IMG/VR virus record: IMGVR_UViG_3300029286_003689
Span: 1 to 64,000 of that record
DNA from: a virus
Length of the DNA stretch: 64,000 bases
Strand: one strand, 5' to 3'
Part shown: positions 1 to 37,554 of the stretch, one piece after another
Numbering within the stretch: the stretch's first letter is position 1
How the letters are laid out: every line of letters begins with the position of its first letter
Notes under the pieces: generated by a model
What the model was told of the DNA's origin: nothing
The model's input: the letters and a program-made list of their open reading frames with translations, nothing else
Database searches by the model: none
Translations under genes and position numbers: made by a program

Positions 1-2523
1 TTAAACGGGCTCCGCGCAAAACCGGCAACCGATAGACGAACCCGTATCCCAGCGATAGTAAGACGTAACCCGACCCCGGGAACCGCAATACACGCCGCCG
101 CCCCAATTACCGCCAGCAATCAGCTTTACATCATTGGAATAAATAGGGCGATACAACTGTCCTTTATCGCCTGGCAGATCATACCAAGCGGCTGTAACTG
201 CTGCGTCATACATCATTGTCTGCTCATCTAACCACTGCCAGAGAGCACCGCAGGCGTCTTCTACGCCTATGTTGGAAATCATACGCCTTGAGGCTGTGTC
301 TATATGGCCACCGGTAGTGCCAGGATCTCCAGCTCCATTAATGTTAGTCGCTTCGTTTGAACCTGTTGCTATTACCTGAAACTCTGGGTCAGTTAACATC
401 TTCTTCTTTACCGCTCCGCCGTCGTCAGTAAAGTCGTTCCAGTCGCGGGTGTCGGTGATCGTGGCTCCATAGACTGAGGCTGTGGATGTGCCGGTGCCGG
501 AAGCAAGGTAAATATCTACCCACTTGCTAATACCTTCACTATAAACCATACCTTCAGGCGCAGAGACTGGCCTATGGTTTAGATCCCAAATCGAAGCAGG
601 CAGAACGTCGCCAGCGACAAAATCGGTCAAGGTGTGGCCTGAAATCGTTCCTACGGCAACACAAAGCCCGTGGAAACCGCCTATTTTACGGCTGGATGTA
701 GTGCTATAGCCTGAAGGATAAGTGGTGCTGGCTGATAAGAGTATTTTAGGGGCTGTGCCAGATACGGGGACGCAAGCATAAATATAAAAGTCTTTGCCTG
801 CGCGGTTTGCAGCTGTGGTGTAATTCGTCGGGCTGGTAGTATCCCAGTTGGCCGCATTTGATACGTCTATTTCCGTCTGAGAAGTTATATAATAGACATT
901 CCCATTTATGGCAACCGATAATAAGGTTGGAGACGATATAGTGTATCTATTTACAGCTGTGCTATAAGGAGCCTTAAGCGCCCACTTATCGGCCCTGTCT
1001 CTTTGGTATAAACCAGGGAACATAGGAAGGCTTGCTTTTGTATCGGCATACGCTTTGCTACTTGGATTTAATAACTCCCATCGTGTATTCGCTAAATTAT
1101 ATTCCACGAGTGCTACATAACCAGCAGCTGGAATATCACCGGCTAATAAAGCAGATCCGCCCTGTTTGGTAACAGCATGCGCGGTTAAACCGTCTGGTGA
1201 AAAAGTCGGCGTGGTTGATGTATTGGATCCCGATGCTACAAAAGCAACTAAAGTTAAATCTGCAAGCGAAATATCCGGGCTATAATCAGCTGTTATAGCG
1301 TCTACTGTCCCAGAGGCAGTTACAATAGAAATGCTCCCAGTAGGGCCTTGTGTTCCCCTGCTTCCTGATACTGATATTGTCCAATCGGTAAAGGTGCCGG
1401 AACCGCCAATATCAAGAACATTAACTACTAAGGTTGTGCTTGAATAGCTTGTTACCTGACCGTGCATATAGTTAGCAGAGTTAGCGTCGGAGGAAATCAA
1501 AACAAATTGTCCGGCTGCAAACTGTTTTCCGGATTGAATAGTAAATGTCTTACTTCCGGTTGCTATGGCTATGCTTGAGGTTGAGGTAGCTTTAAGAGCT
1601 GCTGCGTAATTATTTGCAGCAGTAACGTCCAGGCCTGTCTGCACGCGGTCTGCGGCGGTGGCTATCTTATCTAAACCTGTTTGAACTCTGTCGGCTGCTG
1701 TAGCAACGGCATCGGCATCGGCACTATTTTTTGACGCTAAGGCTTCTCCTGCCTTTGTGGTAGCTATACCGGCCTGAGTCGTTGCAGTATCTTTATAACC
1801 TGACGTTGCTGTTTTATCTAAACCTGTCTGCACGCGGTCTGCGGCGGTTTGAACGGAGTCCGCATCTGCGCTATTCTTTGAGGATAAAGCAGCTACTGCG
1901 CTAAGCCCGGCATTTGTTTCAGCCGTCTCTGCGTTTCCTTCAGCTGTTTCTGCTGCTGTCTTGGCAACCACTGCCGCATCTCTGGCAGCCTCGCCGTCAT
2001 CAACTAAGCCACTAAGGATCTCGATATAGGCTTCAGTATCAGTACTCGTAGGTGTTTCATCTATCGGAAATTTAACACATCTTGATAATTCTTCGATATA
2101 CTGCTGAGCTATCATCGTAAGCTTATCAACCGCTTTTTCTACGTCTTCAGCATAAAACGGGCCGCCGTTCTTCCAATCAGTCTCTTGAGTAAGAAGCTCT
2201 TCGCGCGCTAAAGTGATTTTCTCGCCAGTAGCTAATAAAGGAAGACCAGAAACTACCGTCGGATAAGTAACATACTCATTATTGACATTGACAGAGTAAT
2301 TACTGGTTATCTCGGTTAAGGCCCCTGCGGTATCGGTTTTATAAAGCTTAATATCGCTTCCGTCGACTGTACTAATAGTAAAAGTAAAATCCCAATTCCT
2401 TGTGACTCCATTACCGTTATAGGTAATCTTATTCGTAGTGTCTGATATTTTCGCAAAAGCTGATGAACAAAAAATACCAAACGCCATCAATAGAATCCCA
2501 AATGAAACAAGTAGTTTCTTCAT
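1..2523 (-). CDS. Tail fibre / receptor-binding protein with C-terminal CLec (FGE-like) DGR-type variable domain and N-terminal signal-peptide-like extension
   Basis: T7 gp17-like anchor motif (YNGNGVTRNWDFTF), Ala/Thr-rich coiled repeats, C-terminus GGNW...GSR...IGCRFCAEPV homologous to 42914..45250; RBS AGGAG 9 nt before ATG. Confidence 0.85.
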   Translation of the reverse strand: MKKLLVSFGILLMAFGIFCSSAFAKISDTTNKITYNGNGVTRNWDFTFTISTVDGSDIKLYKTDTAGALTEITSNYSVNVNNEYVTYPTVVSGLPLLATGEKITLAREELLTQETDWKNGGPFYAEDVEKAVDKLTMIAQQYIEELSRCVKFPIDETPTSTDTEAYIEILSGLVDDGEAARDAAVVAKTAAETAEGNAETAETNAGLSAVAALSSKNSADADSVQTAADRVQTGLDKTATSGYKDTATTQAGIATTKAGEALASKNSADADAVATAADRVQTGLDKIATAADRVQTGLDVTAANNYAAALKATSTSSIAIATGSKTFTIQSGKQFAAGQFVLISSDANSANYMHGQVTSYSSTTLVVNVLDIGGSGTFTDWTISVSGSRGTQGPTGSISIVTASGTVDAITADYSPDISLADLTLVAFVASGSNTSTTPTFSPDGLTAHAVTKQGGSALLAGDIPAAGYVALVEYNLANTRWELLNPSSKAYADTKASLPMFPGLYQRDRADKWALKAPYSTAVNRYTISSPTLLSVAINGNVYYITSQTEIDVSNAANWDTTSPTNYTTAANRAGKDFYIYACVPVSGTAPKILLSASTTYPSGYSTTSSRKIGGFHGLCVAVGTISGHTLTDFVAGDVLPASIWDLNHRPVSAPEGMVYSEGISKWVDIYLASGTGTSTASVYGATITDTRDWNDFTDDGGAVKKKMLTDPEFQVIATGSNEATNINGAGDPGTTGGHIDTASRRMISNIGVEDACGALWQWLDEQTMMYDAAVTAAWYDLPGDKGQLYRPIYSNDVKLIAGGNWGGGVYCGSRGRVTSYYRWDTGSSIGCRFCAEPV
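11..124 (-). repeat. VR-like region of fibre A
   Basis: Aligns without gaps over 114 nt to TR 42723..42836; 17 mismatches at TR adenines and 12 at non-adenines. Confidence 0.75.
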
Positions 2524-2524
2524 T

Positions 2525-5500
2525 TTAATGCTCTCCTTTTTCTTTAGTAAATCTCTCCTTTAATTTTCTAAGTTTTATATCTGCCTGCTCTTTGGTTAAA
2601 TCACCTGATTTTACCTTTTTCCTAATTTCGCTTCGCCCTTCATAGAAGTCTCTCTCTAACCATTTTCTTACTTTCTGACGATAGGGAGATGTATCAGGTA
2701 CAATCTTAACGCCAAACATCTCACCTAATAGAGTTCTTCCGACGCCTATTTCCCGACCATATTTATCTGGCTTAGTAGATTTTATTATTCTACCTGGAGT
2801 AGAAGCGAGAATTTGAGGCGCAAGATTCTTTAAGATGTATTTCCCTTTTTCTATTGCTTTTTCATCTTCACTCAAATAATCCGGGGCTATTTTATCTTCT
2901 GTGAATGAATCGTAATTTAGAACAAAGGCATTGTAGAGAATAGGTAGTATGCCACCCATCGTTAAAGTCTGAGGCATCGCTAATTTGCCTTTCTCAACCG
3001 GATACCAACTTCCCCAAGGCAGAAAATAGGTTAAATCTATCCAATTCAGATCTCCATTTGCGTCTCGTCCCGGTAATAACAATACTGATTTACCACGTAT
3101 ATAATCAGGTTTTAACCTTTCTTCATCATCTTTACCTATGCCTAAGAGTCCTCTTGATAAAGCATTAAGCGTTGCCATGCCAGCAGAGAATAATATGAAT
3201 TTTTCAGGTTTACGTATGGCAAACTCAACTAAACGCGGAAGTACCTTGGCTGACCAAGTGATGAATGGAAAAAAGCTCTGTCTTGCATAACCCACTACTT
3301 CTGATGTTTGAGAATAATCAAAAAGTAGTTTATCGGCGAATTTTACTGCTTCTTCTGGAGATCCCCCTTGATCTAACACGTAACGGGCAATAACGGTTTT
3401 TGAAGCATCTTCTACTGCGCCGTATAGTACTGCCGGCGAATGCACAACTTCAGCTATATTATTGGCCCATATCTGAATTTGCTTATAAGGATTGCTGGGG
3501 TCTTCGTCTATATGAAAAGCTAACTCTTTTAATTCCTGCGCAGAGTAAGTATTGTGATAAAGCCCTCTATCTCTGAGTAATTTATAAGCCTCGTCTTTTG
3601 CTACGAATGATTTAATCCCCTTGGCTGCTACTACAGGATTATAAATAGGGACATCTCCCATCCAAGCCATAAGGGTATTAGTAACTATGTTCCGGGAGAC
3701 TGCCGCGGGGCTATAGGGAACCTTAAATAGCTTCCATATACTGTTGGCGTCTCTCCACATCTTGCCGAATTCGGATTGCATCGTATTCCACTTAGATACC
3801 TCTTTTACTAAATCTACCGGGACGTACTGCTCAGCCAGCACCCCATATTTCTTACCGGAAGGCATCTTGTCAAAGCCTTCTACTCCCTTATGTCCTATAA
3901 TGCCGGGTAAAGTCGCTATGGTATTAAATGCCTTGACCGTATAGACCATCTCTATCATTCCAAAAAGGCGTTTTTGTAAAGGATAGGCGGCAGTTTTAAT
4001 AAGCCCTAACTCTTCCCGGGCGTTTCTGCCTAATTCAATTAACTCTTCTTGGGAATACTCGGCTATTTTCTTTTTTGCTGATGGCCATGTACCGTATTGT
4101 GCTTCTAAAACCTTGCGGCCAAATTCTTCATCCGTCATCTTATGCTTCAAGCTTTCAAACCTTGCGCGGATAGCTTTCGACGGAAAATAACCAAAATTAC
4201 GCTTATTTTTCTCAAACTCCTTTGTGTCGTAGAAGAACGGAAAATACTGACCTACGTTATTCCAGAATATCTCGTCGTTAAGAAGCCCTAATTTTCTGGC
4301 TTCATTACCCCATACAGCTAATTCCTGCCGGGCTCCTTCAGTTAATTTACTCAATTCAGTATCTTTTACGGTGTCGCCAAACCTCTGTAAGCTCTCGGCT
4401 ATATACTGCTGTTCTTCTTTACTTAATTCACTTATTGGCTCAATAAGTTCCTCTCTTAATTTCTGCTGCTGGCCCTGGACAAGCTTTCTTCTTTGTCTCA
4501 ATATTTCCATTGCCGTATCATTAAGCCCGCCTCTCTCAAAAAAAGCAGAAGCATGAAGTTTTTTTCCAAGATTCTCTATGGCCTTGCTATAAACATTCCA
4601 AGCTTTATCTCTTGCTTTCTCGCTATAAAATGGCAACCTAAGGCCTCCTCTTTCAATCCATTCCTTGAGTTGAGGTTGTATTTCAGGAATTCTGCGAAGA
4701 GAAAGAACGTATTCCTTTAAGGGTTTCATTGCTGTTTCAAAATCACGTAACTTAGTGATTACATACTGCCATTCTTTATCTTGCCCTATGGTAGTCTCTA
4801 TTTGTGCGGTAAAATTGGGGGCCAATTTGCGGCAGATCTCCGGATCCATAGTGTAAGCGGCCACATAGTCAGCGAAGAGTTCAGGTTTGCTATTGCGGTA
4901 TGATTTAAAGGATTTTGATACGGAAGCAGGATCAAACGGCCTCATCTGTTGAGAAACCGCTTTTAATTCATCCCTAACGGCTTTCTTTTTGGATATCTGG
5001 TAGTCTCCCAGAACATCGTCGAGAAAATGCCCGGTTTCATGAAACAAGGTTTTTTCATCAGCAACGCTTCTTACCCGGATAAGCCCATTCTCTCCGAGCA
5101 TAGGGTAATATACGCCAAGCCACTTCTTCATACGCTTGGACACCTGTAGCTTTGGGCCTATCTCACGCTCAAAAACTCCGGTAATATCCCTGCCCTGATT
5201 TACCTTCCAAGCTTCGTTCTTCTCCCACTCCATATTACCTATAGCAGTAGAAGGCGGGACAGTCTTAGGTTTAACGCCTAATTTTCCTGATACGGATGCC
5301 TTGGATTCTTCTTCGGGTGATGCTGAGGGAAACGCGGAAGATTGCTTTTCTGGAAGGATATAGCTTACTTCTATTTCTTCGGGGGATCTGCGGACTATCT
5401 CAGCCTGTCCGCCCTTATCTTCTACATCGGTAATAAACGCTTCAACTTCTTCATCGGTCTTAAATAATTTGCTTCCTGCTAACTCAACGCCTTCAGCAGC

Positions 5501-8122
5501 AATTTCACTTTGTGCTTCCTCTTCTGCGATACGAACAATTTGCTCAATTTCGGATTCGTCATAACCTTGCTTTTTAAGTTCTTCCCGGAATTTTTCATCA
5601 GTTACCTCCTCTTCAAGAACCTCTGACTCTTTTTGTAGAGAATCTTTATATCCATTTATTAAATCTTCAAATATCGCCTGCTGCTTCTGTGTAACAGGGT
5701 TACCGTTTAATACCTTGTCTATTATAGCAAGGGTATTCTTTTTGGTATAGCCTTTATCTCTAAAATAATCTGGGAATGTAGAAGAGACTCCTATCCATTG
5801 CCCGGATTCAGTAGGCATGCGTTTGCCGGCTTCTCCTTCAGCAATCTGCTGACGCATTACCTTAGCATGCTCTAAATCCTCAGAGAGTACATTAACAACA
5901 CTCTTGATAATTTTTGCTTTGACAATCTTCTGTGCTTTAATCAGCGGAGTTTCGCTGCCTTGAGTAGGTATCTCAACATGAACGTGATAAGGCGTTTGCT
6001 CAGTATCTTCTACTGCTAAACCTAAATCTTGAGCAGCTTTAACCACCTCTTCATGAGTTAACCCAGTTCCTTTAATCTTGATATCTGCTGCGCGGCCAGT
6101 TAAATGAGTGCTATTTTCAGCCGGTTTGTATCCGCGTTTCTTTAAATCCTCGTTATATTCTTTCGTCCGGTATCCGCTGCTAATCGTTACCTGCTTTCCG
6201 AGTGCTTCCTGCAGTTTATTTATTTTAAAAAGAAGTTCTTCGTCAACCTTTACCTGCTCAATAGGCAGTGGTTTTTTAGCTTGATTAAAATTCTCTTTGG
6301 TTATCGGCTTTAAACCTTTCTTGCTTAAAACTTCATTGGTTTCTTCAGAAGCCTTCTTATTGTTTCTCTCAATAAACTGATCTTGTAATTCCGCTTGCCG
6401 TTTATTGATTGCCTCTAACCTGGCTTTAACCTCTGGGGTTTGCTTTTCTTTCTTTAATCGTATTTCCTCATCGATTAAATCTCCATGCTCTTTTCCTTCA
6501 TTATTAAGCCAATCTTCCTCGGATAAATCCGCTTCTTCAGGCTGCGCGACTGGATTAGCTTCTTTTATCTCGTTATATAATTCCTTCAGGTTAAATATTT
6601 CAGCCTTCTCCAGCTGCTTATCGCCAATCTTCATAATGGCTATCTTGTCATTACCTAATTTCTTGCCATCTACATAACCGCCTATTTGAGCTGAGTATTT
6701 ACCTCCTGCAGCCCCCATGTTGGCTAAGCTCTCTACGGCGTCGCCTCTTAAAACATAACCTTTAATGAAATCTGCCGCGGCTTCTCTGGGAGTTAATGTA
6801 GCATCTGATATTATGTTTCTTGTCTTGTCTAATAATTCCTTTGGGACTTCCGGCAAGCTATCTAAAGGCGCGCCACCTTTACTATCAGGAAGCTTCATAG
6901 CTTGATACTTGCCTTCGGCGTCCATAATTCCTACATCTTGAACGTCATCAGGGTTCACATCGTTATTAGTAACAATATCGGCATGCATATTAGCTGTCTC
7001 GTCGGTAATAACCGTTCCGTCTTTGAGGCGGATAGCAAGAGGGACGGGAGATTTTTCTTCAAAACCTATTGTTTTATTTATAACCTCATCAACTTTATCT
7101 ATCGTCTGGCTGATTTCATCTTCAGTTAATCCTTGTTTTAATCCCTCGTTGATAACTTGGCTATGTAGATCGTAACGAATATCATCTATGTGGGGGGCCT
7201 CAAATACGCCCAAGGCACCACCTGATACAGTTCCTGCCAAAATACTCTCCGCAAGCCCATCGGTAAGCCTATCCCATAAAGGACGCGGCTCTTTCCAATT
7301 AAGTACTTTAAGCGAATTCTCAAATACCTGCTGGCTGCCTTCTTCAATTAAGCCCTCTTGTAAGGCGGTTCTAAATACTCTTTTTAAGATATGGCCGCCC
7401 TTCATCCAGTTGCCTAAAACAGTATTCTCAAGAGCAGTTTGTACGGCGCCATCTAATACTGCCAAATCTGTGGCTTTCAGAGGATCAACGCCGTTTTTGA
7501 TTGATTCCTCATACATATCACCGGAAATAGCAGGAAAGAATGTTGCTGCGCCAGCAACGGGAGATCTTGTAAGTGCTGTAACACCGGCAGCTACTCCAAG
7601 CATAGGCAGGTTTTCAGCTGCCAAAGCCATTGTTTTTCTAAAAGGATGCTTCCAACCTAACAAGACTGCAGGGTTCGGGCTTTCTATGCCTTTGTTTGCA
7701 GCTTCATTGAAGAAATTCTTTACATCTCCTCCTATCTCTGCTATTGAATCACCAAACTTGAGAAAAAAATTATCAATAGCATCTCCGGCTTTACTGTTCT
7801 TACCTTTTTCTATGCGTAACCATGGAATGCTTTTTAAACCGGGGAAAGGTACTAAGGGGATGGTTTTTGATTTAGTCTCCTCGACAATATCCTTACCAAT
7901 AAACTCCATACCTGAGCCAAGCCCTGCAGGGATCCTCTCTACCCCTCTAAATAACGCTTTAGCCGAATCCATCCAGACATTGGCGGTATCTAAGGCGCGA
8001 AAAGTAACCTCTTCCGGTGAAGATGTAGGTTTTGCAGAGCCGATATCAAAACCAGTATCTAACTCCTCTGCGCCGTTTTCATTTTCTTTTATTGGGATAG
8101 CACTGGTAACATCAAAAGACAT
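2525..8122 (-). CDS. Large internal virion / DNA-ejection polyvalent protein with peptidase M15-like and HExxH domains
   Basis: Position of T7 gp16; SGYR...STHLTGRAADI...HVHVE (M15-type zinc peptidase) and LFHETGH motifs. Confidence 0.7.
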   Translation of the reverse strand: MSFDVTSAIPIKENENGAEELDTGFDIGSAKPTSSPEEVTFRALDTANVWMDSAKALFRGVERIPAGLGSGMEFIGKDIVEETKSKTIPLVPFPGLKSIPWLRIEKGKNSKAGDAIDNFFLKFGDSIAEIGGDVKNFFNEAANKGIESPNPAVLLGWKHPFRKTMALAAENLPMLGVAAGVTALTRSPVAGAATFFPAISGDMYEESIKNGVDPLKATDLAVLDGAVQTALENTVLGNWMKGGHILKRVFRTALQEGLIEEGSQQVFENSLKVLNWKEPRPLWDRLTDGLAESILAGTVSGGALGVFEAPHIDDIRYDLHSQVINEGLKQGLTEDEISQTIDKVDEVINKTIGFEEKSPVPLAIRLKDGTVITDETANMHADIVTNNDVNPDDVQDVGIMDAEGKYQAMKLPDSKGGAPLDSLPEVPKELLDKTRNIISDATLTPREAAADFIKGYVLRGDAVESLANMGAAGGKYSAQIGGYVDGKKLGNDKIAIMKIGDKQLEKAEIFNLKELYNEIKEANPVAQPEEADLSEEDWLNNEGKEHGDLIDEEIRLKKEKQTPEVKARLEAINKRQAELQDQFIERNNKKASEETNEVLSKKGLKPITKENFNQAKKPLPIEQVKVDEELLFKINKLQEALGKQVTISSGYRTKEYNEDLKKRGYKPAENSTHLTGRAADIKIKGTGLTHEEVVKAAQDLGLAVEDTEQTPYHVHVEIPTQGSETPLIKAQKIVKAKIIKSVVNVLSEDLEHAKVMRQQIAEGEAGKRMPTESGQWIGVSSTFPDYFRDKGYTKKNTLAIIDKVLNGNPVTQKQQAIFEDLINGYKDSLQKESEVLEEEVTDEKFREELKKQGYDESEIEQIVRIAEEEAQSEIAAEGVELAGSKLFKTDEEVEAFITDVEDKGGQAEIVRRSPEEIEVSYILPEKQSSAFPSASPEEESKASVSGKLGVKPKTVPPSTAIGNMEWEKNEAWKVNQGRDITGVFEREIGPKLQVSKRMKKWLGVYYPMLGENGLIRVRSVADEKTLFHETGHFLDDVLGDYQISKKKAVRDELKAVSQQMRPFDPASVSKSFKSYRNSKPELFADYVAAYTMDPEICRKLAPNFTAQIETTIGQDKEWQYVITKLRDFETAMKPLKEYVLSLRRIPEIQPQLKEWIERGGLRLPFYSEKARDKAWNVYSKAIENLGKKLHASAFFERGGLNDTAMEILRQRRKLVQGQQQKLREELIEPISELSKEEQQYIAESLQRFGDTVKDTELSKLTEGARQELAVWGNEARKLGLLNDEIFWNNVGQYFPFFYDTKEFEKNKRNFGYFPSKAIRARFESLKHKMTDEEFGRKVLEAQYGTWPSAKKKIAEYSQEELIELGRNAREELGLIKTAAYPLQKRLFGMIEMVYTVKAFNTIATLPGIIGHKGVEGFDKMPSGKKYGVLAEQYVPVDLVKEVSKWNTMQSEFGKMWRDANSIWKLFKVPYSPAAVSRNIVTNTLMAWMGDVPIYNPVVAAKGIKSFVAKDEAYKLLRDRGLYHNTYSAQELKELAFHIDEDPSNPYKQIQIWANNIAEVVHSPAVLYGAVEDASKTVIARYVLDQGGSPEEAVKFADKLLFDYSQTSEVVGYARQSFFPFITWSAKVLPRLVEFAIRKPEKFILFSAGMATLNALSRGLLGIGKDDEERLKPDYIRGKSVLLLPGRDANGDLNWIDLTYFLPWGSWYPVEKGKLAMPQTLTMGGILPILYNAFVLNYDSFTEDKIAPDYLSEDEKAIEKGKYILKNLAPQILASTPGRIIKSTKPDKYGREIGVGRTLLGEMFGVKIVPDTSPYRQKVRKWLERDFYEGRSEIRKKVKSGDLTKEQADIKLRKLKERFTKEKGEH

Positions 8123-10788: not shown

Positions 10789-13461
10789 TTAACCACCAAG
10801 AATTGTGACGGGAACGATTGATAAAATAGTAAAAGGAAATGGCGCTGTTTGTCTAAAAAACACCCTTCCGCTCTTCTTGTAACCACCTGGTATTGCCTGC
10901 TCGTGAAAACCAGAGAATAACTCTATCGGTTCACCTATTGCTTCACTGGTACGTCCTATCTTTATAGGGTCAAGGCTATTTTCAGATGATCCGATAAAAC
11001 CGCCTCTTGAATTAAGTAAATGCATTCTTAATCTTGCAACATTAGCAAGCTTTCCGTGAGTCGTTCCGACGTCAGTATTGATATCCCCATCTAAAGGTTC
11101 TACGTCGCATATATACGGCAGGCCCACATGAATAATTGAAGCTGGGTTAGATAACACTATCTCTCCGTCTTCAACCACCATTCCTTCTATCCAGTTTCCG
11201 TCAGCAACTACTGAAACGGTTTTGCCTTCAAGGTGGTCTAAATCAGGGACTGTCGTGATTGTTTTTCTAACCTCGCCGTCTTCTTCATAAGCCGTATACT
11301 CTGTGCCATCTATATCGCTATCGTCTTCCGGGTCAGTTAGTTCAAAGGCATTAGCAGAAGCGTTTGCAACCTTAAACCTTTTTCCGTTTAATTCAGTCAT
11401 ACCCTTTACTTCCAAGATGTCTACGAGGTCACCGTTTGCAAAACCATGCGCTTCTTCAGTGGTAATTACTACCGGACTGGCCTGAGTAGCTCCGGTTATT
11501 GTCATCGGATTATCGTAACTTATCCCGCAGTCTACGAAGAATTGCTTACGCGGATCCGTTGAGATCATCCGTTTAACCATCTTCTCAATAAATCTTTCTG
11601 TGCCGCGTTTTATAACCATCCAAACCTCATCATATCCAACAGTGGCATTAGGTATCGTCCAAATAGACTCTACCTGTCCGTCGGTATCATGCCAAGCCCA
11701 AGCAACTATTTCTTGCTCTCTAAGATAAGTCATAGACAATAACATGCCGTCATCCCTTACCAACCAAACCAAGCTATCAGGTTCTTTTTGGTAAGCCATA
11801 TCTATAATTCTGTGTCCTTCAAAGAGTTGATTTGAAAGCAAACTTAAAGGATCTCCTGTATAGCCGTCCGAGATATAATCGTATCCTAAATCCCAAACTA
11901 CTGTCCCCATGGGCTGAACGTATATAACCCTATTGCCTATCACTACCGGCAACACCTTTGAGCTACCGCGGCCTTCCTGAAGCTTTGGATAAACGGTTGT
12001 AGGGGTTAAGACTCCTTCCGATGATGAACCTATGCTCCATGCCCTTGAAGACGTAAAGGCAAGAATATCTCCTAATAAAATAAAGCTCTTTACGGCGTCC
12101 ATTTTTCGGCTGGGTAAACGTATACTTATGCCATCAGAATCAACCAGGGGGTCGCTTCTGCCAAAATTTATGTAATTATTTGTCCTTGTACTCCAAACCC
12201 CAAGAATTTCAGACTTCGTTGCACCAAAGACTAACCTGTCTTGCTCAAACATACAAGTAGCCGGATAACCTCTCTTTTCCGACCATGAACCCTCTGACCA
12301 AAACTCTGTTGCCGCGGTCGCTCCGACTTCCTTCAATACTTCCGCAGTTACCACTGTCGCGCTTGTAAATGCAGTTATTTTTACTATCCCGACCTGTGTA
12401 AAAGCATCTGTGCTCAAATCAACATTTATCGTCCCGCTTGTAAAAATAGTACATTTTACCCGGACAAGAACGGCATCGTCTTCATCAAAATCCCCGTAAG
12501 TATTGTGGTTGATGTCCCCATCGTAAGAAGTAAAACTCCTTACAGAAGACCAAGTTGTGCCACCGTCTATTGACTTCTCTATTTTAATAGTGCCTGTCCA
12601 GATTCCATGTGTAACAAGACGCCACGTGCCATTAGGCCCGCATTTTATTGAAGTAGTTTCTCCGACGGCAGTAAAGGCTTTTGAAACGAATTGACTTTCT
12701 ATATTATGCTCAAGTTTAAATAAGGCTCCTATGTGACCTACTTCAAATAATGCTTTACTTGCCGTAAGTGTAATTCCGCTACCTGTCACGGCGTTGGCGG
12801 TAAGAGTTAAATCCTCGTCTATGTTTTGCTGCATAAACGGGCCTTCTTCAAATGGATATAAGGCAATTCGCCAGCTATAATGAGAATATCTTGTAATAGT
12901 CCGGGGGCAAAAATCATTGTGGGTAACGTAGAGTACATCAGCCGATTGAGTGAATTGAAGGTCTTCCAGATCATCTTCAGCGTACGGTGTTTCTATTTCG
13001 TATATGTCTGAGGCTTCCCAATCAGTGACGTTGCCTGGAGGGGTTGCGTGGCCAGCGCCAGAGGTATGATTCGTCTTTGAACGATAAACAATACCGCCTA
13101 CCTTAACAAAATCTCCTATGTAGTAAACTGTGGCTGTTACCCATGCCGCTGTTGTCGTCGGGGCTATGAGCTGTCCGTCATTCATGTAAAATCGGCAATA
13201 ATACTCTCCGAATTCTATTGAATATACCTGATCAGCAGAAAATTCAAATCCTACTCCCCGGCATTTCTTATCGCTGTATTTTGGCTTCTTGATGAAATAG
13301 AGACCTGGTCTATTAGAGGCACCGCCATGGGGATGAGGAAAGGTGTTGCGTAGCCTGCGGCATCCTGAACCATAACGCTGCAGGTCTATGCGTGACCATA
13401 GGCTTGGAGCAAACTCTCCTCCGGTAAAAGCCGGCTTTAGTACTTCTATTTTCTGCGCCAT
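10789..13461 (-). CDS. Tail tubular protein B (nozzle, gp12-like)
   Basis: FTGGEFAP start, QSADVLY, AWAWHDT motifs; 890 aa. Confidence 0.85.
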   Translation of the reverse strand: MAQKIEVLKPAFTGGEFAPSLWSRIDLQRYGSGCRRLRNTFPHPHGGASNRPGLYFIKKPKYSDKKCRGVGFEFSADQVYSIEFGEYYCRFYMNDGQLIAPTTTAAWVTATVYYIGDFVKVGGIVYRSKTNHTSGAGHATPPGNVTDWEASDIYEIETPYAEDDLEDLQFTQSADVLYVTHNDFCPRTITRYSHYSWRIALYPFEEGPFMQQNIDEDLTLTANAVTGSGITLTASKALFEVGHIGALFKLEHNIESQFVSKAFTAVGETTSIKCGPNGTWRLVTHGIWTGTIKIEKSIDGGTTWSSVRSFTSYDGDINHNTYGDFDEDDAVLVRVKCTIFTSGTINVDLSTDAFTQVGIVKITAFTSATVVTAEVLKEVGATAATEFWSEGSWSEKRGYPATCMFEQDRLVFGATKSEILGVWSTRTNNYINFGRSDPLVDSDGISIRLPSRKMDAVKSFILLGDILAFTSSRAWSIGSSSEGVLTPTTVYPKLQEGRGSSKVLPVVIGNRVIYVQPMGTVVWDLGYDYISDGYTGDPLSLLSNQLFEGHRIIDMAYQKEPDSLVWLVRDDGMLLSMTYLREQEIVAWAWHDTDGQVESIWTIPNATVGYDEVWMVIKRGTERFIEKMVKRMISTDPRKQFFVDCGISYDNPMTITGATQASPVVITTEEAHGFANGDLVDILEVKGMTELNGKRFKVANASANAFELTDPEDDSDIDGTEYTAYEEDGEVRKTITTVPDLDHLEGKTVSVVADGNWIEGMVVEDGEIVLSNPASIIHVGLPYICDVEPLDGDINTDVGTTHGKLANVARLRMHLLNSRGGFIGSSENSLDPIKIGRTSEAIGEPIELFSGFHEQAIPGGYKKSGRVFFRQTAPFPFTILSIVPVTILGG

Positions 13462-13756: not shown

Positions 13757-14362
13757 CTATCTTGAGTCCTCAAACGATGAGGTTTGTTTCTGTTTTACAT
13801 TACTCTCTCCGTCATTTATCCTGGCGGCATCACTTACCATTGACAAATATATACTAAGCAGGGTTTTCATCTTATCCTGATCTCCTGTTAGTGGGATTGC
13901 TGCATGAGTGGCTACAAGAAAAGATAATGCCATGGCAGCTGAGACATCAAATTTTGAAACATCGGTTACTTGATAGGTAAATTCTATGTAGGCTTCTTCA
14001 GAATTGCAGGCAATAACTTCTTGATTTAATTCGGGTATAAATACTTTCTCATGCTCAATAGGTTTTGGGTCAGGATCACCTGTATCAAGAAACACCTTTC
14101 TAACACACAGGCATTTTGCGGGAATAGCATAAACGTAACTCCAACCCGGAATCTCTTGGTCATCCAATTCAACAAGAAGTTCCTTTACCTTGGCAAAACC
14201 CCAATTCTTAGCTCTAAGAACATTATCCCGGCAGAATGGAAAAATACGATTAAGAGTCCTAACTTTTTTATCTGTAATATCTTCTAAAGAATCAAGCGGG
14301 TCTTCGTTTAGGTGCCCGAGAGCTATGTTGCTAATTACTAAATCATCTACTGTCTTTGGCAT
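13757..14362 (-). CDS. Tail tubular protein A (adaptor, gp11-like)
   Basis: ISNIALGHL...W.FA...YAIPAKCL motifs. Confidence 0.85.
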   Translation of the reverse strand: MPKTVDDLVISNIALGHLNEDPLDSLEDITDKKVRTLNRIFPFCRDNVLRAKNWGFAKVKELLVELDDQEIPGWSYVYAIPAKCLCVRKVFLDTGDPDPKPIEHEKVFIPELNQEVIACNSEEAYIEFTYQVTDVSKFDVSAAMALSFLVATHAAIPLTGDQDKMKTLLSIYLSMVSDAARINDGESNVKQKQTSSFEDSR

Positions 14363-15475: not shown

Positions 15476-16498
15476 TTACGCTGTGACTATTGACTCAGAA
15501 TTCAGGATCTTATCGCAACGGCGAATAGGTATACCCATGAACGTGGTCAGGGATTTACCATTCTCAAGCTCGCGGATAGTCAAATTCACATTGCTCTTGT
15601 TGTACGCTTTGATATCCAGAGCGGTCTTAACTTCTTTGTTGCAATACCACGCTGCGCGGCCAGAAGCTAAGCTCGGAACTTTATTCATCGCCTGAATCAT
15701 GAACTTAATCAGGTTAGCTGAACCGTCAACTTGATCACCGGCTTGCGCTAAGAGAGAAATATCCAGGTTGGCGATACGAACGGCGAATCTCCAGTCTCTC
15801 ACGCAAAGACCTAAGTCCTGGTAGAACTGGTCAACGAAAGCCAGATACTGCCCTGCAGGAGTCTGGTCATCGTTTACAAGCTGTTTACCCAAGTCGTTAT
15901 GGGTAATGCCTGCCTTGGTTGCGCGGGGATAAAACGCGTGGATGGTATTCTCTCCCCAGATTACTAACCACATAGACGTAACATCGGTCTGGCCAGCTAT
16001 GGCTCCGCCGTCTATTACGTTCTCGGAAGAAGCTACGGCTGCGGCGAGAGACGAGTAATACGGAGATAAACCTGTAAACCTCTCCGGATTGGTCTCTACA
16101 TTGCCGTAGAAGAGCGTAGTGGCCATTTCTTGAGACAATGCCTCAATGAATGGCGCGTTTTCGGAAATTCTGAAAGCCGCCTTGTCAACCGCGATATTGA
16201 CAAGCAATTCATCAATTTTACCCATGCCTTCAAGGTGCCCTGCGGTAAAAAGCTGCTGCCTTGTCTGGGATTTAGAGGGCTGAACGCCTCGGTTAATCTG
16301 TCTCCACGCAACGGTAGGAAGGCCCGTACGTATTGTGGATTTGTGCCCGGTGGTCGTGTTACCTTCAATGAACACGAGATCGGAAAGTATCTCGTTCTTT
16401 TCGTTCATCATTTCTGAAATACGTGCTATCTTTCCGTTCGGGTCAAGCCTTCTGGCATGATCCATTAGTGTTAAATTCGTATTGCCGATAGTACTCAT
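15476..16498 (-). CDS. Major capsid protein (BPP-1 Bbp17-like)
   Basis: RTGLP..WR..N.GV, DWRFAVRIANLD, FMGIPIRRCD motifs. Confidence 0.9.
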   Translation of the reverse strand: MSTIGNTNLTLMDHARRLDPNGKIARISEMMNEKNEILSDLVFIEGNTTTGHKSTIRTGLPTVAWRQINRGVQPSKSQTRQQLFTAGHLEGMGKIDELLVNIAVDKAAFRISENAPFIEALSQEMATTLFYGNVETNPERFTGLSPYYSSLAAAVASSENVIDGGAIAGQTDVTSMWLVIWGENTIHAFYPRATKAGITHNDLGKQLVNDDQTPAGQYLAFVDQFYQDLGLCVRDWRFAVRIANLDISLLAQAGDQVDGSANLIKFMIQAMNKVPSLASGRAAWYCNKEVKTALDIKAYNKSNVNLTIRELENGKSLTTFMGIPIRRCDKILNSESIVTA

Positions 16499-17386: not shown

Positions 17387-17704
17387 TTAAATATCGTCTG
17401 TCTCCGGAGGAATTTCTTTTTTAAGACTTTCTTGTTCTGATTTATATTCGTTCTGCATTTGCAGAAAAGCTTCTGGGGTTATATCAGCCCAGAAGAGTTG
17501 ACCTATAGATTGTTTTCCACAATTAAAATCTGTTTTGTTGTCGCCGGCAAAAGGGTTACGTAACACGCCGGATACACTCAACAAACGCCACATTAACCGT
17601 CTACCTTCAGCTAAACGCAAGACCCGGACAATATCACTAAGCTCGCGTTCCCTGAGCCTCTTGTCTCGTTCAGCTATTTTTTTACCTCTCTCTTCAGCGT
17701 TCAT
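17387..17704 (-). CDS. Bbp19-like head protein
   Basis: EGRRLMWRLL...FNCGKQSIG motif between portal and scaffold. Confidence 0.7.
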   Translation of the reverse strand: MNAEERGKKIAERDKRLRERELSDIVRVLRLAEGRRLMWRLLSVSGVLRNPFAGDNKTDFNCGKQSIGQLFWADITPEAFLQMQNEYKSEQESLKKEIPPETDDI

Positions 17705-19446
17705 TATTTCTTACCCTCTTGAACCTTTTGAGGAACGTCTTTGCCGGTTAAAGCTTTTATCACTGCATCAAGAGCAGTTCCCTCTCCCACTTTTGCTTGA
17801 GAAAGAGTCTTGGCGCCTTCAGCTGCTTGCATGCCTGACTGCATCTGTTGCTGCTTTAGAAGAGCTTCTTGTTTAGCCTTACGCATAGCAGCCACAATTT
17901 CAGCACTCCGTACAAGCCTTGCTGGAACACCCTTCATTTCGCTAAATGTCTCTATAATTTCATCAATATCAATCTTGTCTTCTGGCCCAGATTCCGGGAA
18001 TACCTTTCTTAACTCACCTACGAATTGACACAACTCTTGGATAGCCTGCGTCCCTATAGCCTTTTGAGCTTGCGAAAGTACTGAGATAAAATCGATCTTA
18101 ATATCCTGACCTTGTAGTTCTTCGGGAATCTCTGGAATCATGCCAAGAGCGAGCATTATTAAAAATGTTCTGCTTATCAATAAATCAAGGAAGTCTTCAA
18201 TTACGTCAAGCACCGGGCCGAGCATCATTAGCTTCTCTTCATACTTCTTTGCTATCTCTTCGGCGGTTACCTGTCTGCGATCAGACTGAAGAAGCATGAG
18301 AAATAAATCGGTATAGAAAGCCCTGCTTACTGAAGCGCGCGTATTCTCAATACTCTTGTCTACATCTGCAAGGCTAATCTGGACTTGATACGCAGGTCTT
18401 ACACCGGCGTCCGGAAGGTTAGAAGAGGATGTGGTTATTCCGCCAGGAGCAGTGTTTACCTCTCCTGAAACATTAGCGTCTTTTTGCAGTGGGGGCTTTA
18501 ACTGTAAGTCAAGAGCAAGATACCTGTCTTTCTGTAGCTTCTGAAGGCCTTTAGAAGCACCTAAAGCAAGCCAGCCCGGAGCACCCTTGCCATAAATATC
18601 CGCTGAAGTAGTAACTCCCCAGACAGCAGTCAAAACAGGGAAATCGTTATAACCACCTATGCGTAAGAAAGTATCTGCTGGGGATCCTGACTCCCATTGA
18701 ATTGACCGGTATTTCATATTCTGGAAATCTGCCTTATCCGGCACCCGGTCATCATTTTCTTCAATAAGATGGATTACTTTAATCCATTGACCTAATTCAG
18801 CCGCCCTCTTTGATTCATAGGATTTCTTTACGGTATCGCTTACGTTGTCTTTGCCAAACTCCTTAACGAGTTGGTCAACGGTCATCCAGAATTCACGCGC
18901 GAATCCGTTAACTCTTCCATCTGGGCCAACGCTTAAGAAATATTCGCCTGCGGTAAAATTCCTGGCTCTAACAACAGAATCAAAATCTTCCCCGATATAC
19001 ATTGCCGCTGTCCCAAAGCTTCCCAACTCTTCAAAGAACGAAGTCAATGCCCCGTAGATATTTGAGCGCTGGAAAACATTACGCATACGCTCTTCCACGG
19101 TATCAAGCCACAGTTTAACGTTTTGATTATCCATTAAGTCTTGGTCAGATACTCCAAGCTTAAACCAAGGCCTGACCTGAGAAGTCATACCGCTTGAGAT
19201 ACCAGAGCCAAGAGTCCTGCTACAATATTGAGGGTGCTCGTCAAGAAGCGTCTTATGATCTATAGCCTTTCCGTCATTAGGCTGATCATCAAAAAAGCCC
19301 CGTGTGGGGGCCTCATAGAGTTTGATATCTTTATACGTCGGCCAATACCGTTGACCTTCGCTCTTCATTGCGCTAACGCGCTGCTCAAACATTGCCCTGA
19401 GCAATCCTATACCAACCTTCTTTTTTTCTACTACTGCTTCAGGCAT
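17704..19446 (-). CDS. Portal (head-tail connector)
   Basis: RPWFKL, FGTA, TAEEI...LGPV motifs; 580 aa. Confidence 0.9.
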   Translation of the reverse strand: MPEAVVEKKKVGIGLLRAMFEQRVSAMKSEGQRYWPTYKDIKLYEAPTRGFFDDQPNDGKAIDHKTLLDEHPQYCSRTLGSGISSGMTSQVRPWFKLGVSDQDLMDNQNVKLWLDTVEERMRNVFQRSNIYGALTSFFEELGSFGTAAMYIGEDFDSVVRARNFTAGEYFLSVGPDGRVNGFAREFWMTVDQLVKEFGKDNVSDTVKKSYESKRAAELGQWIKVIHLIEENDDRVPDKADFQNMKYRSIQWESGSPADTFLRIGGYNDFPVLTAVWGVTTSADIYGKGAPGWLALGASKGLQKLQKDRYLALDLQLKPPLQKDANVSGEVNTAPGGITTSSSNLPDAGVRPAYQVQISLADVDKSIENTRASVSRAFYTDLFLMLLQSDRRQVTAEEIAKKYEEKLMMLGPVLDVIEDFLDLLISRTFLIMLALGMIPEIPEELQGQDIKIDFISVLSQAQKAIGTQAIQELCQFVGELRKVFPESGPEDKIDIDEIIETFSEMKGVPARLVRSAEIVAAMRKAKQEALLKQQQMQSGMQAAEGAKTLSQAKVGEGTALDAVIKALTGKDVPQKVQEGKK

Positions 19447-19866: not shown

Positions 19867-21360
19867 CTATTTGTTTGCGAAGGGGTCGTAATCGTTCTTG
19901 GCGAATTGAGGCTGTTCGTTAGACTTCTTTTTAGTAATGGGAAAGGCAAAGGTAATTGCGGGAGCATCTGCCCTGCTTGGTGAAGCAAGACCCCTATCTT
20001 TCATTGTCTTTTTAGACTCAAGGACTATCTCGCCTTTTAAATTTGGATAAGATTCCGGGCCAGTTAAATCGTCAATTAACTTTTGGTCATCAGGAACACA
20101 ACCGCCTTCTTCAAGCCACTTCTTCATCTTGCCCCACATCTCAGCGCGCTTATTAGCATATCCGGGCGTTGTTGATTTAGAGCCAAAAGAACAAAGCAGC
20201 CATTGCCGATTCATCTGTTTACCAAAAGAATAAACGCCTGTGCCGTAACCTAAGTCAATAATAACTCCGTCGGCTTTCTCTCTATCTTCCCATGCGGCCA
20301 CTGCTGCCGCTATCAAAGCGTCATTGTCATTCTTCTGGAATGTTTGCAGTTGCCGATATACCAAGCCTTGTCGTATACCAATAACTATTTCATCCCCGCC
20401 AGTCCAAGCCATATCTACGCCGATTATTTTGGGAGCAAAATTATATTTATGCGCTTCTATCTGCCTGCCGCGGGCTGCCTCTGCTAAATCAGTAGGAATA
20501 AATTGCAGATCTCCAGCTTTAGGAAAAAGCCCAAGCACGTGCACACGCACCCAGTCGCTATCTATTCCTAAGTCATCAATCCACTCTCTAACCTTTTTTT
20601 GGTTAACGAGCATTGACTTACGAATATCAAGCTGCCATTGCTTCCAGCGATGCCGCATCTTTCCCCAGCATTCACGAAAGCGGCCGGTATTTCTGGTAGG
20701 GTTTCCAAAGACAAGCCACAGTATCTGAGTTCCTAAGTCAGTTAACGCACCTTCTGCTGTCTCCCATATCTTGTCAGGAATAGCTGAAGCCTCATCAAAA
20801 ACAAGGAGTATGCGCTTGCCTTTATTGTGTAAGCCGGCAAAAGCCTCAACATTATGCTCACTCCAAGGAACCTGATCTATTCTCCAGGTACGCTCATGCT
20901 CTTTGCTCTTGGCGTATATGGCTGTAGCTGTAAGTTCAAACCAGTGCTTAGCTATAAAAAGCCTGTACCATTTACTAAGTTCAGCCCACGTCTTAGTGCG
21001 CAGCTGAGTCTCTGTGTTAGCAGTAACAACTCCGCGCGTATCTTCAAAGGTCGATAAAGCCCAAAGGATAATCCAAGCAACCAGCGCGCTCTTACCAGGC
21101 CCATTACCTGAAGCCACCGAAATCTGGACAACATAGCTTACAGCTTCCTGAACCGTCTTTTTACCGGCTTGCAACTGATCCCGAATGTACTTTAAAACCT
21201 CTTCCTGCCATTTATCCGGGCCTGTGTATCCTTCAAGCTCATCTTCACCCCACCTAAAAGAAAAAAGAACCCAGCCGTACGGATCCTTTTCAAATGAAGC
21301 CATGTCTTCAACAAGCTGAAGTTCGGCTTTTATTTCTTCTTCGCGGTCGAGCTCTGGCAT
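19867..21360 (-). CDS. terL: Terminase large subunit
   Basis: Walker A SGNGPGKS, Walker B LLVFDEAS, FGNPTR, nuclease GVDMA and SRADA. Confidence 0.92.
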   Translation of the reverse strand: MPELDREEEIKAELQLVEDMASFEKDPYGWVLFSFRWGEDELEGYTGPDKWQEEVLKYIRDQLQAGKKTVQEAVSYVVQISVASGNGPGKSALVAWIILWALSTFEDTRGVVTANTETQLRTKTWAELSKWYRLFIAKHWFELTATAIYAKSKEHERTWRIDQVPWSEHNVEAFAGLHNKGKRILLVFDEASAIPDKIWETAEGALTDLGTQILWLVFGNPTRNTGRFRECWGKMRHRWKQWQLDIRKSMLVNQKKVREWIDDLGIDSDWVRVHVLGLFPKAGDLQFIPTDLAEAARGRQIEAHKYNFAPKIIGVDMAWTGGDEIVIGIRQGLVYRQLQTFQKNDNDALIAAAVAAWEDREKADGVIIDLGYGTGVYSFGKQMNRQWLLCSFGSKSTTPGYANKRAEMWGKMKKWLEEGGCVPDDQKLIDDLTGPESYPNLKGEIVLESKKTMKDRGLASPSRADAPAITFAFPITKKKSNEQPQFAKNDYDPFANK

Positions 21361-36099: not shown

Positions 36100-36182
36100 A
36101 GTATACTACACCAGTTAGGTTTTGTCAAGTATTTTTTTACAATATTTTTTATCTTGCAACATTACAAAAAGAGGAGTAAAAT
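36100..36182. promoter_or_regulatory. Divergent sigma70 promoters of the lysis/lysogeny switch
   Basis: Minus strand: TTGACA(36128-36123)-17-TATACT(36105-36100); plus strand: TTGCAA(36154-36159)-17-TAAAAT(36177-36182). Confidence 0.75.
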
Positions 36183-36189
36183 TACGAGT

Positions 36190-36744: not shown

Positions 36745-36757
36745 AGAGGGATAAGTT

Positions 36758-37048
36758 TTGAAGATTGGCGGATGGGAAGTTAATAAGTTAGAGGTAATAG
36801 TAGGCGCTTCTTTGCTACTGTTAATCTTATTAGGATTTTTACTTACGATTGGGACTATCTTTGGCATCCCGAACAAGCTGTCAAATGCCTTGATGGCTGG
36901 AGGCTTAATAGTAGGTATCCCCTATTTTCTGTGTATAGTGGTTGGTACGCTTTTTCTGCTTCCCGTATTTCTATTCTATATACTTAAAACCTTGTACATT
37001 ATTTTTACTAACCCACGCCCAATTAAAAAAACAAAATGGAAAGAGTAA
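36758..37048 (+). CDS. Membrane protein (lysogenic cargo)
   Basis: 2-3 hydrophobic segments, co-oriented with cI. Confidence 0.55.
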   Translation: MKIGGWEVNKLEVIVGASLLLLILLGFLLTIGTIFGIPNKLSNALMAGGLIVGIPYFLCIVVGTLFLLPVFLFYILKTLYIIFTNPRPIKKTKWKE

Positions 37049-37548: not shown

Positions 37549-37554
37549 GATATT

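What the first reader, a model, noticed from the sequence alone, without database searches (positions are those of the whole stretch)
2452..2523. DGR-type phage tail fibre carrying a cleavable Sec signal peptide
Seen: fibre A begins MKKLLVSFGILLMAFGIFCSSAFA (basic n-region, hydrophobic h-region, AFA cleavage site) after a good RBS. The predicted mature start KISDTTNKITYNGNG lines up with the first residue of the sister fibre B (MIADNYTPVKTLGNG), which has no such extension. Known: podovirus fibres are assembled in the cytoplasm and lack signal peptides. Inference: the hypervariable fibre may be exported, for example as a lysogen surface adhesin, a receptor-masking decoy, or a fibre added to virions in the periplasm or after lysis. 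Alternatively the leader is a membrane tether for tail assembly. Any of these would be a new use of a DGR-diversified fibre.
Basis: partly seen in the sequence, partly recalled or inferred. Interest (0 to 1): 0.82.

Follow-up and report, generated by a model that had tools for sequence, protein, structure and literature searches.

The report
Phage tail fibre with export signal
The only host-recognition fibre of this T7-like prophage starts with a secretion signal that selection has kept. Related uncultured phages acquired similar signals several times, so the fibre probably matures outside the cytoplasm where phage particles are normally built, though no experiment shows this yet.

Summary
Fibre A (window 1-2523, minus strand, 840 aa) begins with 24 residues, MKKLLVSFGILLMAFGIFCSSAFA (2452-2523). 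They have a basic n-region, a hydrophobic core and AFA before the cut. A GGAGAG ribosome-binding site lies 7 nt upstream, and the upstream gene stops 1 nt before the ATG.

The leader is translated and under selection. A 90-98% identical phage from another metagenome carries it with 5 substitutions, all synonymous. No canonical in-frame start codon lies between codon 13 and codon 137.

The leader is not a one-off. Of 226 homologues of the anchor domain, 17 carry leaders of about 12 unrelated sequences, with at least 9 gains or losses on the anchor tree. Every leader ends A/S/V-x-A/G exactly where leaderless fibres begin (MT...). Cleavage would therefore recreate the normal N-terminus.

A complete 42.8-kb genome with terminal repeats has such a fibre as its only anchor-bearing gene. 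In the window, no other virion gene has a leader.

The leader goes with the gp17-type anchor, not with the DGR tip. Export, cleavage and late attachment to particles are inferred. No trained predictor or experiment was available.

This scan has noted signal peptides on podovirus tail parts in other genomes. I found no published description.

The parts
2531..2536 (-). Shine-Dalgarno GGAGAG, 7 nt upstream of the fibre A start codon
   Evidence: Read directly from the sequence. It is conserved in L021.
2452..2523 (-). 24-codon leader MKKLLVSFGILLMAFGIFCSSAFA, a Sec/SPase I-type signal peptide with predicted cut AFA|K
   Evidence: Searches give the sequence and the n/h/c features. Window and L021 differ at 5 leader positions, all synonymous. 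AlphaFold2 gives the leader pLDDT 50-62 and does not pack it on the anchor.
2074..2451 (-). Tail-anchor domain of the fibre (residues 25-150), T7 gp17 / Carin-1 / epsilon15 type
   Evidence: PHROG tail-fibre families match from residues 26-30. PDB 8CK1 matches at E 1e-11. AlphaFold2 pLDDT is 93-97. Foldseek hits are 8CK1_B (TMt 0.80) and T7 gp17 in 7EY9, 7BOZ and 9JZ0, all at probability 1.00.
1594..2031 (-). Ala/Thr-rich repetitive shaft (about residues 165-310), probably a coiled coil
   Evidence: Based on the translated sequence only. This is an inference.
7..900 (-). Mtd-like C-terminal receptor-binding module (residues 542-839). It includes the Mtd second domain (residues 558-647, window 583-852).
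   Evidence: phrog_11262 at E 1e-54. Pfam PF21916 at E 5e-17.
11..124 (-). DGR-type variable-region-like stretch at the fibre tip
   Evidence: It is 75% identical to TR of prophage B at 42723-42836. It differs from TR-B at about 17 adenines and also at about a dozen other bases. Its own TR and RT, if any, lie beyond the start of the record.
2525..8122 (-). Upstream late gene: a 1865-aa gp16-like internal virion protein with an M15 peptidase domain. Its stop codon is 1 nt before the fibre ATG.
42914..45250 (-). Fibre B of the second prophage. It is a leaderless comparator that starts MIADNYTPVKTLGNG at the anchor.

Best explanation
Fibre A is the receptor-binding tail fibre of a T7-like temperate podovirus. 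It has a gp17-type anchor, a shaft and an Mtd/DGR-type lectin tip. It is made as a precursor with a genuine, selected Sec-type signal peptide.

Shown here:
- The leader is translated and conserved.
- Leaders were acquired repeatedly in this fibre family.
- The leader is always positioned so that signal peptidase I cleavage (AFA|K here) would recreate the N-terminus that leaderless fibres have after loss of the initiator Met.

Inferred:
- During late gene expression the fibre is threaded through SecYEG and cut at the outer face of the inner membrane, and it folds and trimerises in the periplasm.
- It docks on cytoplasmically built, DNA-filled, tail-bearing but fibreless particles only when holin action or lysis merges the two compartments.
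- The fibre is the last and most peripheral part to be added, which would explain why it alone carries the signal in these phages.
For: - Start site: an SD 7 nt upstream, and the upstream gene's stop abutting the ATG.
- No other canonical in-frame start lies between codon 13 and codon 137, so the anchor cannot be made without the leader.
- Window versus L021, a 90-98% identical phage from another metagenome: 5 of 5 leader substitutions are synonymous, p about 0.001-0.006.
- Seventeen of 226 anchor homologues carry leaders of about 12 unrelated sequences.
- At the alignment-defined boundary, position -3 is A/S/V and position -1 is A/G in 17 of 17. The next residue is T in 14 of 17. Of 203 leaderless fibres, 147 start MT.
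[quoted passage not shown] By my count it is 11-12 after the predicted cut.
- The h-regions vary in sequence and length while the c-region and anchor are conserved.
- The anchor tree needs at least 9 gains or losses (14-17 when labels are shuffled). It contains one deep clade in which all members have leaders.
- G001 is a complete 42,787-bp genome with a 123-bp terminal repeat. Its leader-bearing fibre is its only anchor gene and its only structural protein with a leader.
- AlphaFold2 leaves the leader unstructured and off the anchor fold.
- The positive n-region (MKK) fits an N-in, body-out topology.
Against: - No trained predictor (SignalP) and no experiment was available. Export of an 816-residue trimeric fibre and late docking are untested.
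- The leader type found in the window is known from only two records, and all nine closest anchor homologues lack a leader.
- Leader-bearing fibres are a minority: 5 of the best 150 cluster representatives.
- Cysteine content does not differ between fibres with and without leaders (p 0.54), so oxidative folding gives no obvious reason for export.
- The record ends at the fibre's stop codon, so a second, leaderless fibre or a lysis cassette downstream of fibre A cannot be seen.
- A later check within this scan of the same idea on other DNA put the bold reading at about 30 in 100.
Confidence: 0.55

Rival explanations
1. The exported fibre is not the virion's fibre pool. It acts in the envelope of the producing or lysogenic cell as a receptor mask, decoy or superinfection-exclusion factor. 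Virions would take up a small unexported fraction, or another protein.
For: Envelope-targeted phage proteins that block receptors are known; T5 Llp is an example (my own knowledge). Prophage B carries an opposite-strand lipoprotein and membrane-protein pair beside its fibre gene, so envelope-directed accessory genes do occur at this locus.
Against: The complete genome G001 has no other anchor-bearing gene. The precise restoration of the docking-competent N-terminus in 17 of 17 cases makes sense only if the cleaved product must still fit the tail. Fibre A abuts the late operon, and there is no promoter signal above chance.
Confidence: 0.15
2. The leader is an uncleaved membrane anchor or a releasable (SAR-like) tether. 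It holds the fibre at the inner membrane until lysis, or it organises tail assembly at the membrane.
For: The hydrophobic core is rich in Gly, Ser and Ala. Ten of the 17 leaders contain Cys.
Against: A canonical A-x-A motif sits exactly at the anchor boundary in every leader family. With a positive n-region the body would still end up on the periplasmic side. A retained stretch of 24-37 hydrophobic residues would lengthen an N-terminus whose length is otherwise almost invariant.
Confidence: 0.1
3. The leader is a cytoplasmic pro-peptide or assembly timer that is removed by some other protease, with no export.
For: Phage capsid proteins have N-terminal pro-regions that prediction tools sometimes flag as signal peptides (Matrishin 2023, PMC10367356).
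Against: I did not look for a prohead protease; none appeared among the virion genes scanned. The n/h/c architecture and the -3/-1 rule are specific to signal peptidase I. The h-regions drift freely among hydrophobic residues, as in true signal peptides.
Confidence: 0.08
4. The leader is an artefact. Either the start codon is wrong and translation begins downstream (for example at Met13), or the leader is a recent neutral fusion in a decaying prophage.
For: The nearest homologues lack a leader. The record is a provirus cut off at the fibre stop.
Against: Substitutions before Met13 (codons 2, 3 and 8) are synonymous only. The SD lies before M1, not before M13. The L021 phage is 96% complete, and the five late genes compared are 80-98% identical to the window's. 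In the first 196 codons, 62 of 69 codon differences are synonymous. Leaders recur and persist in deep clades.
Confidence: 0.03
5. The leader is a lipoprotein signal (SPase II), and the fibre is lipid-anchored through Cys19.
For: Cys19 lies late in the leader. One relative, P0110, has a plausible lipobox, LSSC.
Against: In fibre A the residues before Cys19 are G-I-F, so position -1 is Phe, which the lipobox does not allow. Several leaders have no Cys at all (P0036, P0041, P0062, P0131, P0214).
Confidence: 0.02

Closest known systems
T7 gp17-type podovirus tail-fibre anchor (T7 gp17 N-domain in PDB 7EY9/7BOZ; Carin-1 fibre in 8CK1; epsilon15/phiV10 tailspike N-domains; Pelagibacter podophage fibres)
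   Same: The fold is the same (Foldseek probability 1.00, TMt 0.62-0.80). The sequences are related. The gene has the same position, directly after the internal virion proteins.
   Different: All cultured examples that I checked start at the anchor with no leader. Fibre A has 24 extra N-terminal residues with signal-peptide features.
Mtd of Bordetella phage BPP-1 and other phage DGR variable proteins
   Same: Fibre A has the Mtd second domain and a C-terminal lectin-type tip with a VR-like stretch that matches a TR.
   Different: Published surveys state that phage DGR targets lack signal peptides or TM segments (Benler 2018, PMC6199706). They assign signal peptides to cellular targets (Roux 2021, PMC8144416). 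Fibre A combines a virion anchor, a DGR-type tip and a signal peptide.
Bacterial Sec/SPase I (type I) signal peptides
   Same: Fibre A has a positive n-region, a hydrophobic stretch of about 15 residues, small residues at -3/-1 and no lipobox.
   Different: The signal sits on a structural protein of a tailed phage, whose particles are thought to assemble entirely in the cytoplasm.
Signal peptides on podovirus nozzle and fibre proteins noted earlier in this scan (e1-3440356, e1-371983, e1-3445941, e1-4796764)
   Same: They are Sec-type leaders on podovirus host-recognition proteins of uncultured phages, and they raise the same inferred question of extracytoplasmic maturation.
   Different: In this case only the fibre carries a leader; the nozzle and adaptor do not. 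The phage is a T7-like temperate prophage and the fibre has a DGR-type tip. No look-alike sequence was in the scan's index.

Membership tests
Sec/SPase I signal peptide | Positively charged n-region followed by a hydrophobic h-region of about 7-15 residues | tested here: met
   MKK is followed by LLVSFGILLMAFGIF. The best 9- or 10-residue KD mean is 2.8.
Sec/SPase I signal peptide | c-region with small uncharged residues at -3 and -1 (A-x-A) | tested here: met
   AFA|K in fibre A. A/S/V at -3 and A/G at -1 in 17 of 17 leader-bearing homologues, at the boundary defined by alignment.
Sec/SPase I signal peptide | No lipobox (that is, not SPase II) | tested here: met
   G-I-F precedes Cys19, and the regex scan found no lipobox.
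Sec/SPase I signal peptide | Positive call by a trained predictor (SignalP, Phobius) | not testable with these tools
Sec/SPase I signal peptide | Demonstrated export and cleavage | not testable with these tools
   This needs reporter fusions or N-terminal proteomics.
T7 gp17-type tail-fibre anchor | Fold of the N-terminal tail-docking domain | tested here: met
   AlphaFold2 pLDDT 93-97 for residues 31-110. Foldseek hits 8CK1_B, 7EY9, 7BOZ and 9JZ0 at probability 1.00.
T7 gp17-type tail-fibre anchor | Gene follows the internal virion protein genes in a T7-like late operon | tested here: met
   The order is portal, capsid, gp11-like, gp12-like, internal virion proteins, gp16-like, fibre.
T7 gp17-type tail-fibre anchor | Anchor begins at the protein's own N-terminus | tested here: not met
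   The precursor has 24 extra residues. The feature would be met only after the predicted cleavage.
T7 gp17-type tail-fibre anchor | Match to Pfam PF03906 (Phage_T7_tail) | tested here: not met
   Fibre A has no Pfam hit at E<=0.01 other than PF21916. Several anchor homologues carry a precomputed PF03906 hit.
DGR variable protein (Mtd type) | Mtd-like body with a C-terminal lectin-type tip | tested here: met
   PF21916 at E 5e-17. phrog_11262 at E 1e-54.
DGR variable protein (Mtd type) | VR differs from a cognate TR only at TR adenines | tested here: inconclusive
   Against TR-B, VR-A differs at about 17 adenines and also at about a dozen other bases. VR-B differs from TR-B only at 13 adenines.
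DGR variable protein (Mtd type) | Cognate TR and reverse transcriptase next to the target | not testable with these tools
   The record starts at the fibre's stop codon. The source contig could not be fetched.

The most novel reading that the evidence does not exclude
In a polyphyletic set of uncultured T7/epsilon15-like podoviruses, including this DGR-armed prophage, the receptor-binding fibre is exported by Sec and trimmed by signal peptidase I. It joins finished, DNA-filled particles only after the inner membrane is breached. That would be a two-compartment assembly route not described for tailed phages. It would also place a DGR-diversified phage fibre in the cell envelope before release.
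Probability: 0.35. Interest if true: 0.85.

Novelty: new variant of a known kind. Interest (0 to 1): 0.7.

Why it matters
Tailed-phage particles are taught to assemble wholly in the cytoplasm, and published DGR surveys use 'no signal peptide' as a mark of phage targets as opposed to cellular ones. This fibre family offers a clean natural experiment against both ideas. One anchor domain occurs with and without leaders, and the leaders always sit in the register that restores the native N-terminus.

If export is real, fibre attachment can be a post-lysis or periplasmic step. That would matter in three ways:
- It would change how host-range proteins fold, which bears on engineering fibres in trans.
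- It would blur the line between phage and cellular DGR targets.
- It would suggest a route by which phage fibres become bacterial surface lectins.

The idea can be tested with ordinary reporter fusions and T7 gene 17 complementation.

Tried and rejected
- An exact-match scan of metagenome contigs with a VR-A string found nothing.
- A scan with the leader DNA found only the L021 contig, in both collections.
- The search for related loci with three other leader-bearing fibres gave no useful context (P0131 and P0056: no hits; P0110: only distant hits).
- Oxidative folding as the reason for export: rejected for now, because Cys density is the same with and without leaders.
- Independent promoter or lysogenic expression of fibre A: sigma-70-like sites are at chance level and the gene abuts the upstream ORF.
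- Origin of the leader by deletion fusion with a neighbouring secreted gene: the signal-bearing genes next to fibre B lie on the opposite strand. Leaderless relatives have a different upstream gene. No origin was found.
- An apparent leader-like extension in Salmonella phage PAT1 was a tblastn run-on through stop codons.
- Three literature searches found no paper describing signal peptides on tail fibres.
Full report
WHAT IS THERE

The window is bases 1-64000 of a 75,018-bp IMG/VR provirus record. It holds two tandem T7-like prophages, with nearly all genes on the minus strand.

Prophage A has this gene order:
- repressor and integrase (36154-38747, plus strand);
- terminase (19867-21360);
- portal (17704-19446);
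- capsid (15476-16498);
- gp11-like adaptor (13757-14362);
- gp12-like nozzle (10789-13461);
- internal virion proteins;
- a 1865-aa gp16-like protein with an M15 peptidase domain (2525-8122);
- fibre A (1-2523).

The record starts exactly at fibre A's stop codon, so whatever follows the fibre cannot be seen.

Fibre A (840 aa) has the following parts:
- a 24-residue leader;
- an anchor domain that PHROG tail-fibre profiles match from residues 26-30;
- an Ala-rich shaft;
- an Mtd-like C-terminal module (PF21916, phrog_11262) that ends in a VR-like stretch.

THE OBSERVATION

The leader MKKLLVSFGILLMAFGIFCSSAFA is encoded at 2452-2523. GGAGAG lies 7 nt upstream, and the upstream gene's TAA is 1 nt from the ATG. 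The leader has two lysines, an uncharged hydrophobic stretch of about 15 residues and A-F-A before Lys25. It has no lipobox.

A rule-based scan of every ORF of 60 aa or more in the window flagged fibre A as the only same-strand phage gene with these features. The nozzle, the adaptor and the internal proteins have none.

No canonical in-frame start codon lies between codon 13 and codon 137. The anchor therefore cannot be translated without at least part of the leader.

IS IT TRANSLATED AND SELECTED?

IMG/VR holds a second phage, L021. It is a 41,176-bp contig, 96% complete, from another metagenome. Its late genes are 80-98% identical to those of prophage A.

Its fibre has the same 24 residues, but the DNA differs at five leader positions, all synonymous (codons 2, 3, 8, 18 and 20). 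Only about 25% of single substitutions in this stretch are synonymous (36% of transitions). Five out of five therefore has p of about 0.001-0.006 under neutrality.

Over the first 196 codons, 62 of 69 differing codons are synonymous. So the whole gene, leader included, is under purifying selection.

IS IT A ONE-OFF?

The nine closest anchor homologues all start MT(V/I)PAGSIKHVYNGNG, with no leader. The wider family tells a different story.
- Among IMG/VR loci, five carry a second, unrelated leader, MK(K/R)...GPxFPGPLAPALA|TVTDTY (L026, L027, L056, L057 and L058). It sits on an anchor close to fibre B's.
- A search with that fibre's N-terminus gave 46 proteins, of which 12 have leaders.
- An exhaustive HMMER search with fibre A's anchor gave 12,655 cluster representatives at E<=0.001. 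Five of the best 150 have leaders.

In all, 17 of 226 collected proteins carry leaders of about 12 unrelated sequences.

When the boundary is defined by alignment to the leaderless proteins, and not by choosing a cleavage site, the results are as follows:
- position -3 is A, S or V, and position -1 is A or G, in 17 of 17;
- the next residue is Thr in 14 of 17;
- 147 of 203 leaderless fibres start Met-Thr, and 186 of 203 have a small second residue. The established MetAP rule predicts loss of the initiator Met for these.

The N-terminus-to-GNG distance is 12-13 in nearly all leaderless proteins. By my count it is 11-12 after the predicted cut. Cleavage would thus recreate, to the residue, the N-terminus of the cytoplasmic fibres.

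Within the second leader family the h-region drifts in sequence and length, while the c-region and the anchor stay about 90% identical. That is how real signal peptides evolve.

On a FastTree tree of the anchor domains, leader presence needs at least 9 changes (14-17 when labels are shuffled). One deep clade (P0051, P0054, P0056, P0062, P0064; branch lengths above 1) is all leader-bearing, each member with a different leader sequence. So leaders were gained repeatedly and also kept for a long time.

IS IT THE VIRION'S FIBRE?

The record behind L058 (G001) is a complete 42,787-bp genome with a 123-bp direct terminal repeat. The leader-bearing fibre is its only gene with the anchor domain. It is also the only protein in the structural block (terminase to fibre) with a hydrophobic N-terminus.

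AlphaFold2 on residues 1-175 of fibre A gives pLDDT 93-97 for the anchor and 50-62, with no structure, for the leader. Foldseek places the anchor with the fibre N-domains seen docked in solved podovirus tails: Carin-1 8CK1_B (TMt 0.80), T7 gp17 (7EY9, 7BOZ, 9JZ0), Kp7/Kp9 and PhiM1.

The cultured phages I checked (epsilon15-like PAT1, Pelagibacter HTVC035P, Vibrio 1.182.O) start at the anchor.

HOW IT MOST LIKELY WORKS

The shown facts are best explained by a cleavable Sec signal. With a positive n-region the body goes out, and signal peptidase I, whose active site faces the periplasm, generates the docking-competent N-terminus.

The fibre is the outermost and last-added part of a T7-type tail. 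From my own knowledge, fibreless T7 particles can be completed with free fibres. The simplest model is therefore a periplasmic fibre pool that meets fibreless particles when holin action or lysis merges the compartments. This step is inferred, not shown.

I could not find why export would pay. Cysteine density is the same with and without leaders. Receptor masking or debris protection remains possible, and I list it as a rival.

The leader goes with the anchor, not with the DGR tip. L058 has a non-Mtd C-terminus, and other leader-bearing fibres carry pectate-lyase-type Pfam domains.

DGR STATUS

VR-B differs from TR-B only at 13 adenines. VR-A differs from TR-B at about 17 adenines and also at about a dozen other bases. 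Fibre A therefore probably has, or had, its own template beyond the end of the record. This bears on a neighbouring note from this scan (e1-6093838) rather than on the leader.

HOST

The best genome matches are Candidatus Omnitrophota MAGs. One has a DGR cassette 84% identical in DNA to prophage B's. This rests on MAG binning only.

KNOWN OR NEW

Benler et al. 2018 state that phage DGR proteins lack the TM regions and signal peptides of bacterial DGR proteins. Roux et al. 2021 assign signal peptides to cellular targets. Matrishin et al. 2023 report signal peptides on some Porphyromonas phage genes, but in the passages I read they name only capsid proteins, spanins and genes of unknown function. 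Three full-text searches found no description of signal peptides on tail fibres.

Within this scan the general phenomenon, Sec-type leaders on podovirus nozzles and fibres, has been reported on other DNA. A later check put the observation at 93 in 100 and the bold export reading at about 30 in 100. No look-alike of this fibre was indexed.

This case adds three things:
- a family-wide register test;
- a fibre-only pattern in T7-like phages;
- the combination with a DGR-type tip.

LIMITS

- No trained signal-peptide predictor and no experiment was available.
- The window's leader type is known from only two records.
- The record is truncated at the fibre.

Noticed in passing
window 45311-45816 (+ strand): Two opposite-strand small genes lie between the gp16-like gene and fibre B of prophage B. 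One encodes a 109-aa protein with a lipoprotein-type start (MKKLFIMLLLIPFIQGC). The other encodes a 57-aa protein with one TM segment. They look like a moron pair, possibly for exclusion or spanin-like. Neither matches a PHROG family.
   Followed up: partly
window 1-160 versus 42690-42870: VR-A differs from TR-B at about 17 adenines and also at about a dozen non-adenine positions, whereas VR-B differs from TR-B only at 13 adenines. Fibre A therefore probably has its own template outside the record. The provirus boundary cuts prophage A exactly at the fibre stop.
   Followed up: partly
L058 9940-10000; the same place in L026 and L027: A conserved TTGACA-16 nt-TAnnnT motif lies in the 52-nt gap upstream of the second-type leader-bearing fibre genes. 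It may be a dedicated promoter. The consensus scan did not flag it.
   Followed up: no
L026 9362-11747: An Mtd-type fibre ending ...GCRFCAEPV is followed directly by a homologue of window ORF 40950-41267, with no TR or RT in between. The DGR cassette seems to be missing or located elsewhere in that phage.
   Followed up: no
leaders of P0001, P0037, P0038, P0051, P0052, P0054, P0056, P0064, P0098, P0110, P0112: Eleven of the 17 leaders contain one or two Cys residues, 5-10 residues before the A-x-A site. Only P0110 (LSSC) resembles a lipobox. I have no explanation.
   Followed up: partly
window 2525-8122 (-): The gp16-like internal virion protein (1865 aa) carries an M15-family peptidase domain (residues 617-716), where T7 gp16 has a lytic transglycosylase.
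   Followed up: no
L056 10001-11824 versus L057/L058: The L056 fibre is identical to the L057/L058 fibre for about 560 residues. It then diverges and ends at 607 aa instead of 785. This looks like a frameshift or a swapped tip.
   Followed up: no
L006 (Omnitrophota MAG JAPLLY010000054.1) 10885-12916: This stretch is 84% identical in DNA to prophage B's fibre-end, TR and RT region (window 41014-43046). It hints that the host is an Omnitrophota bacterium.
   Followed up: partly
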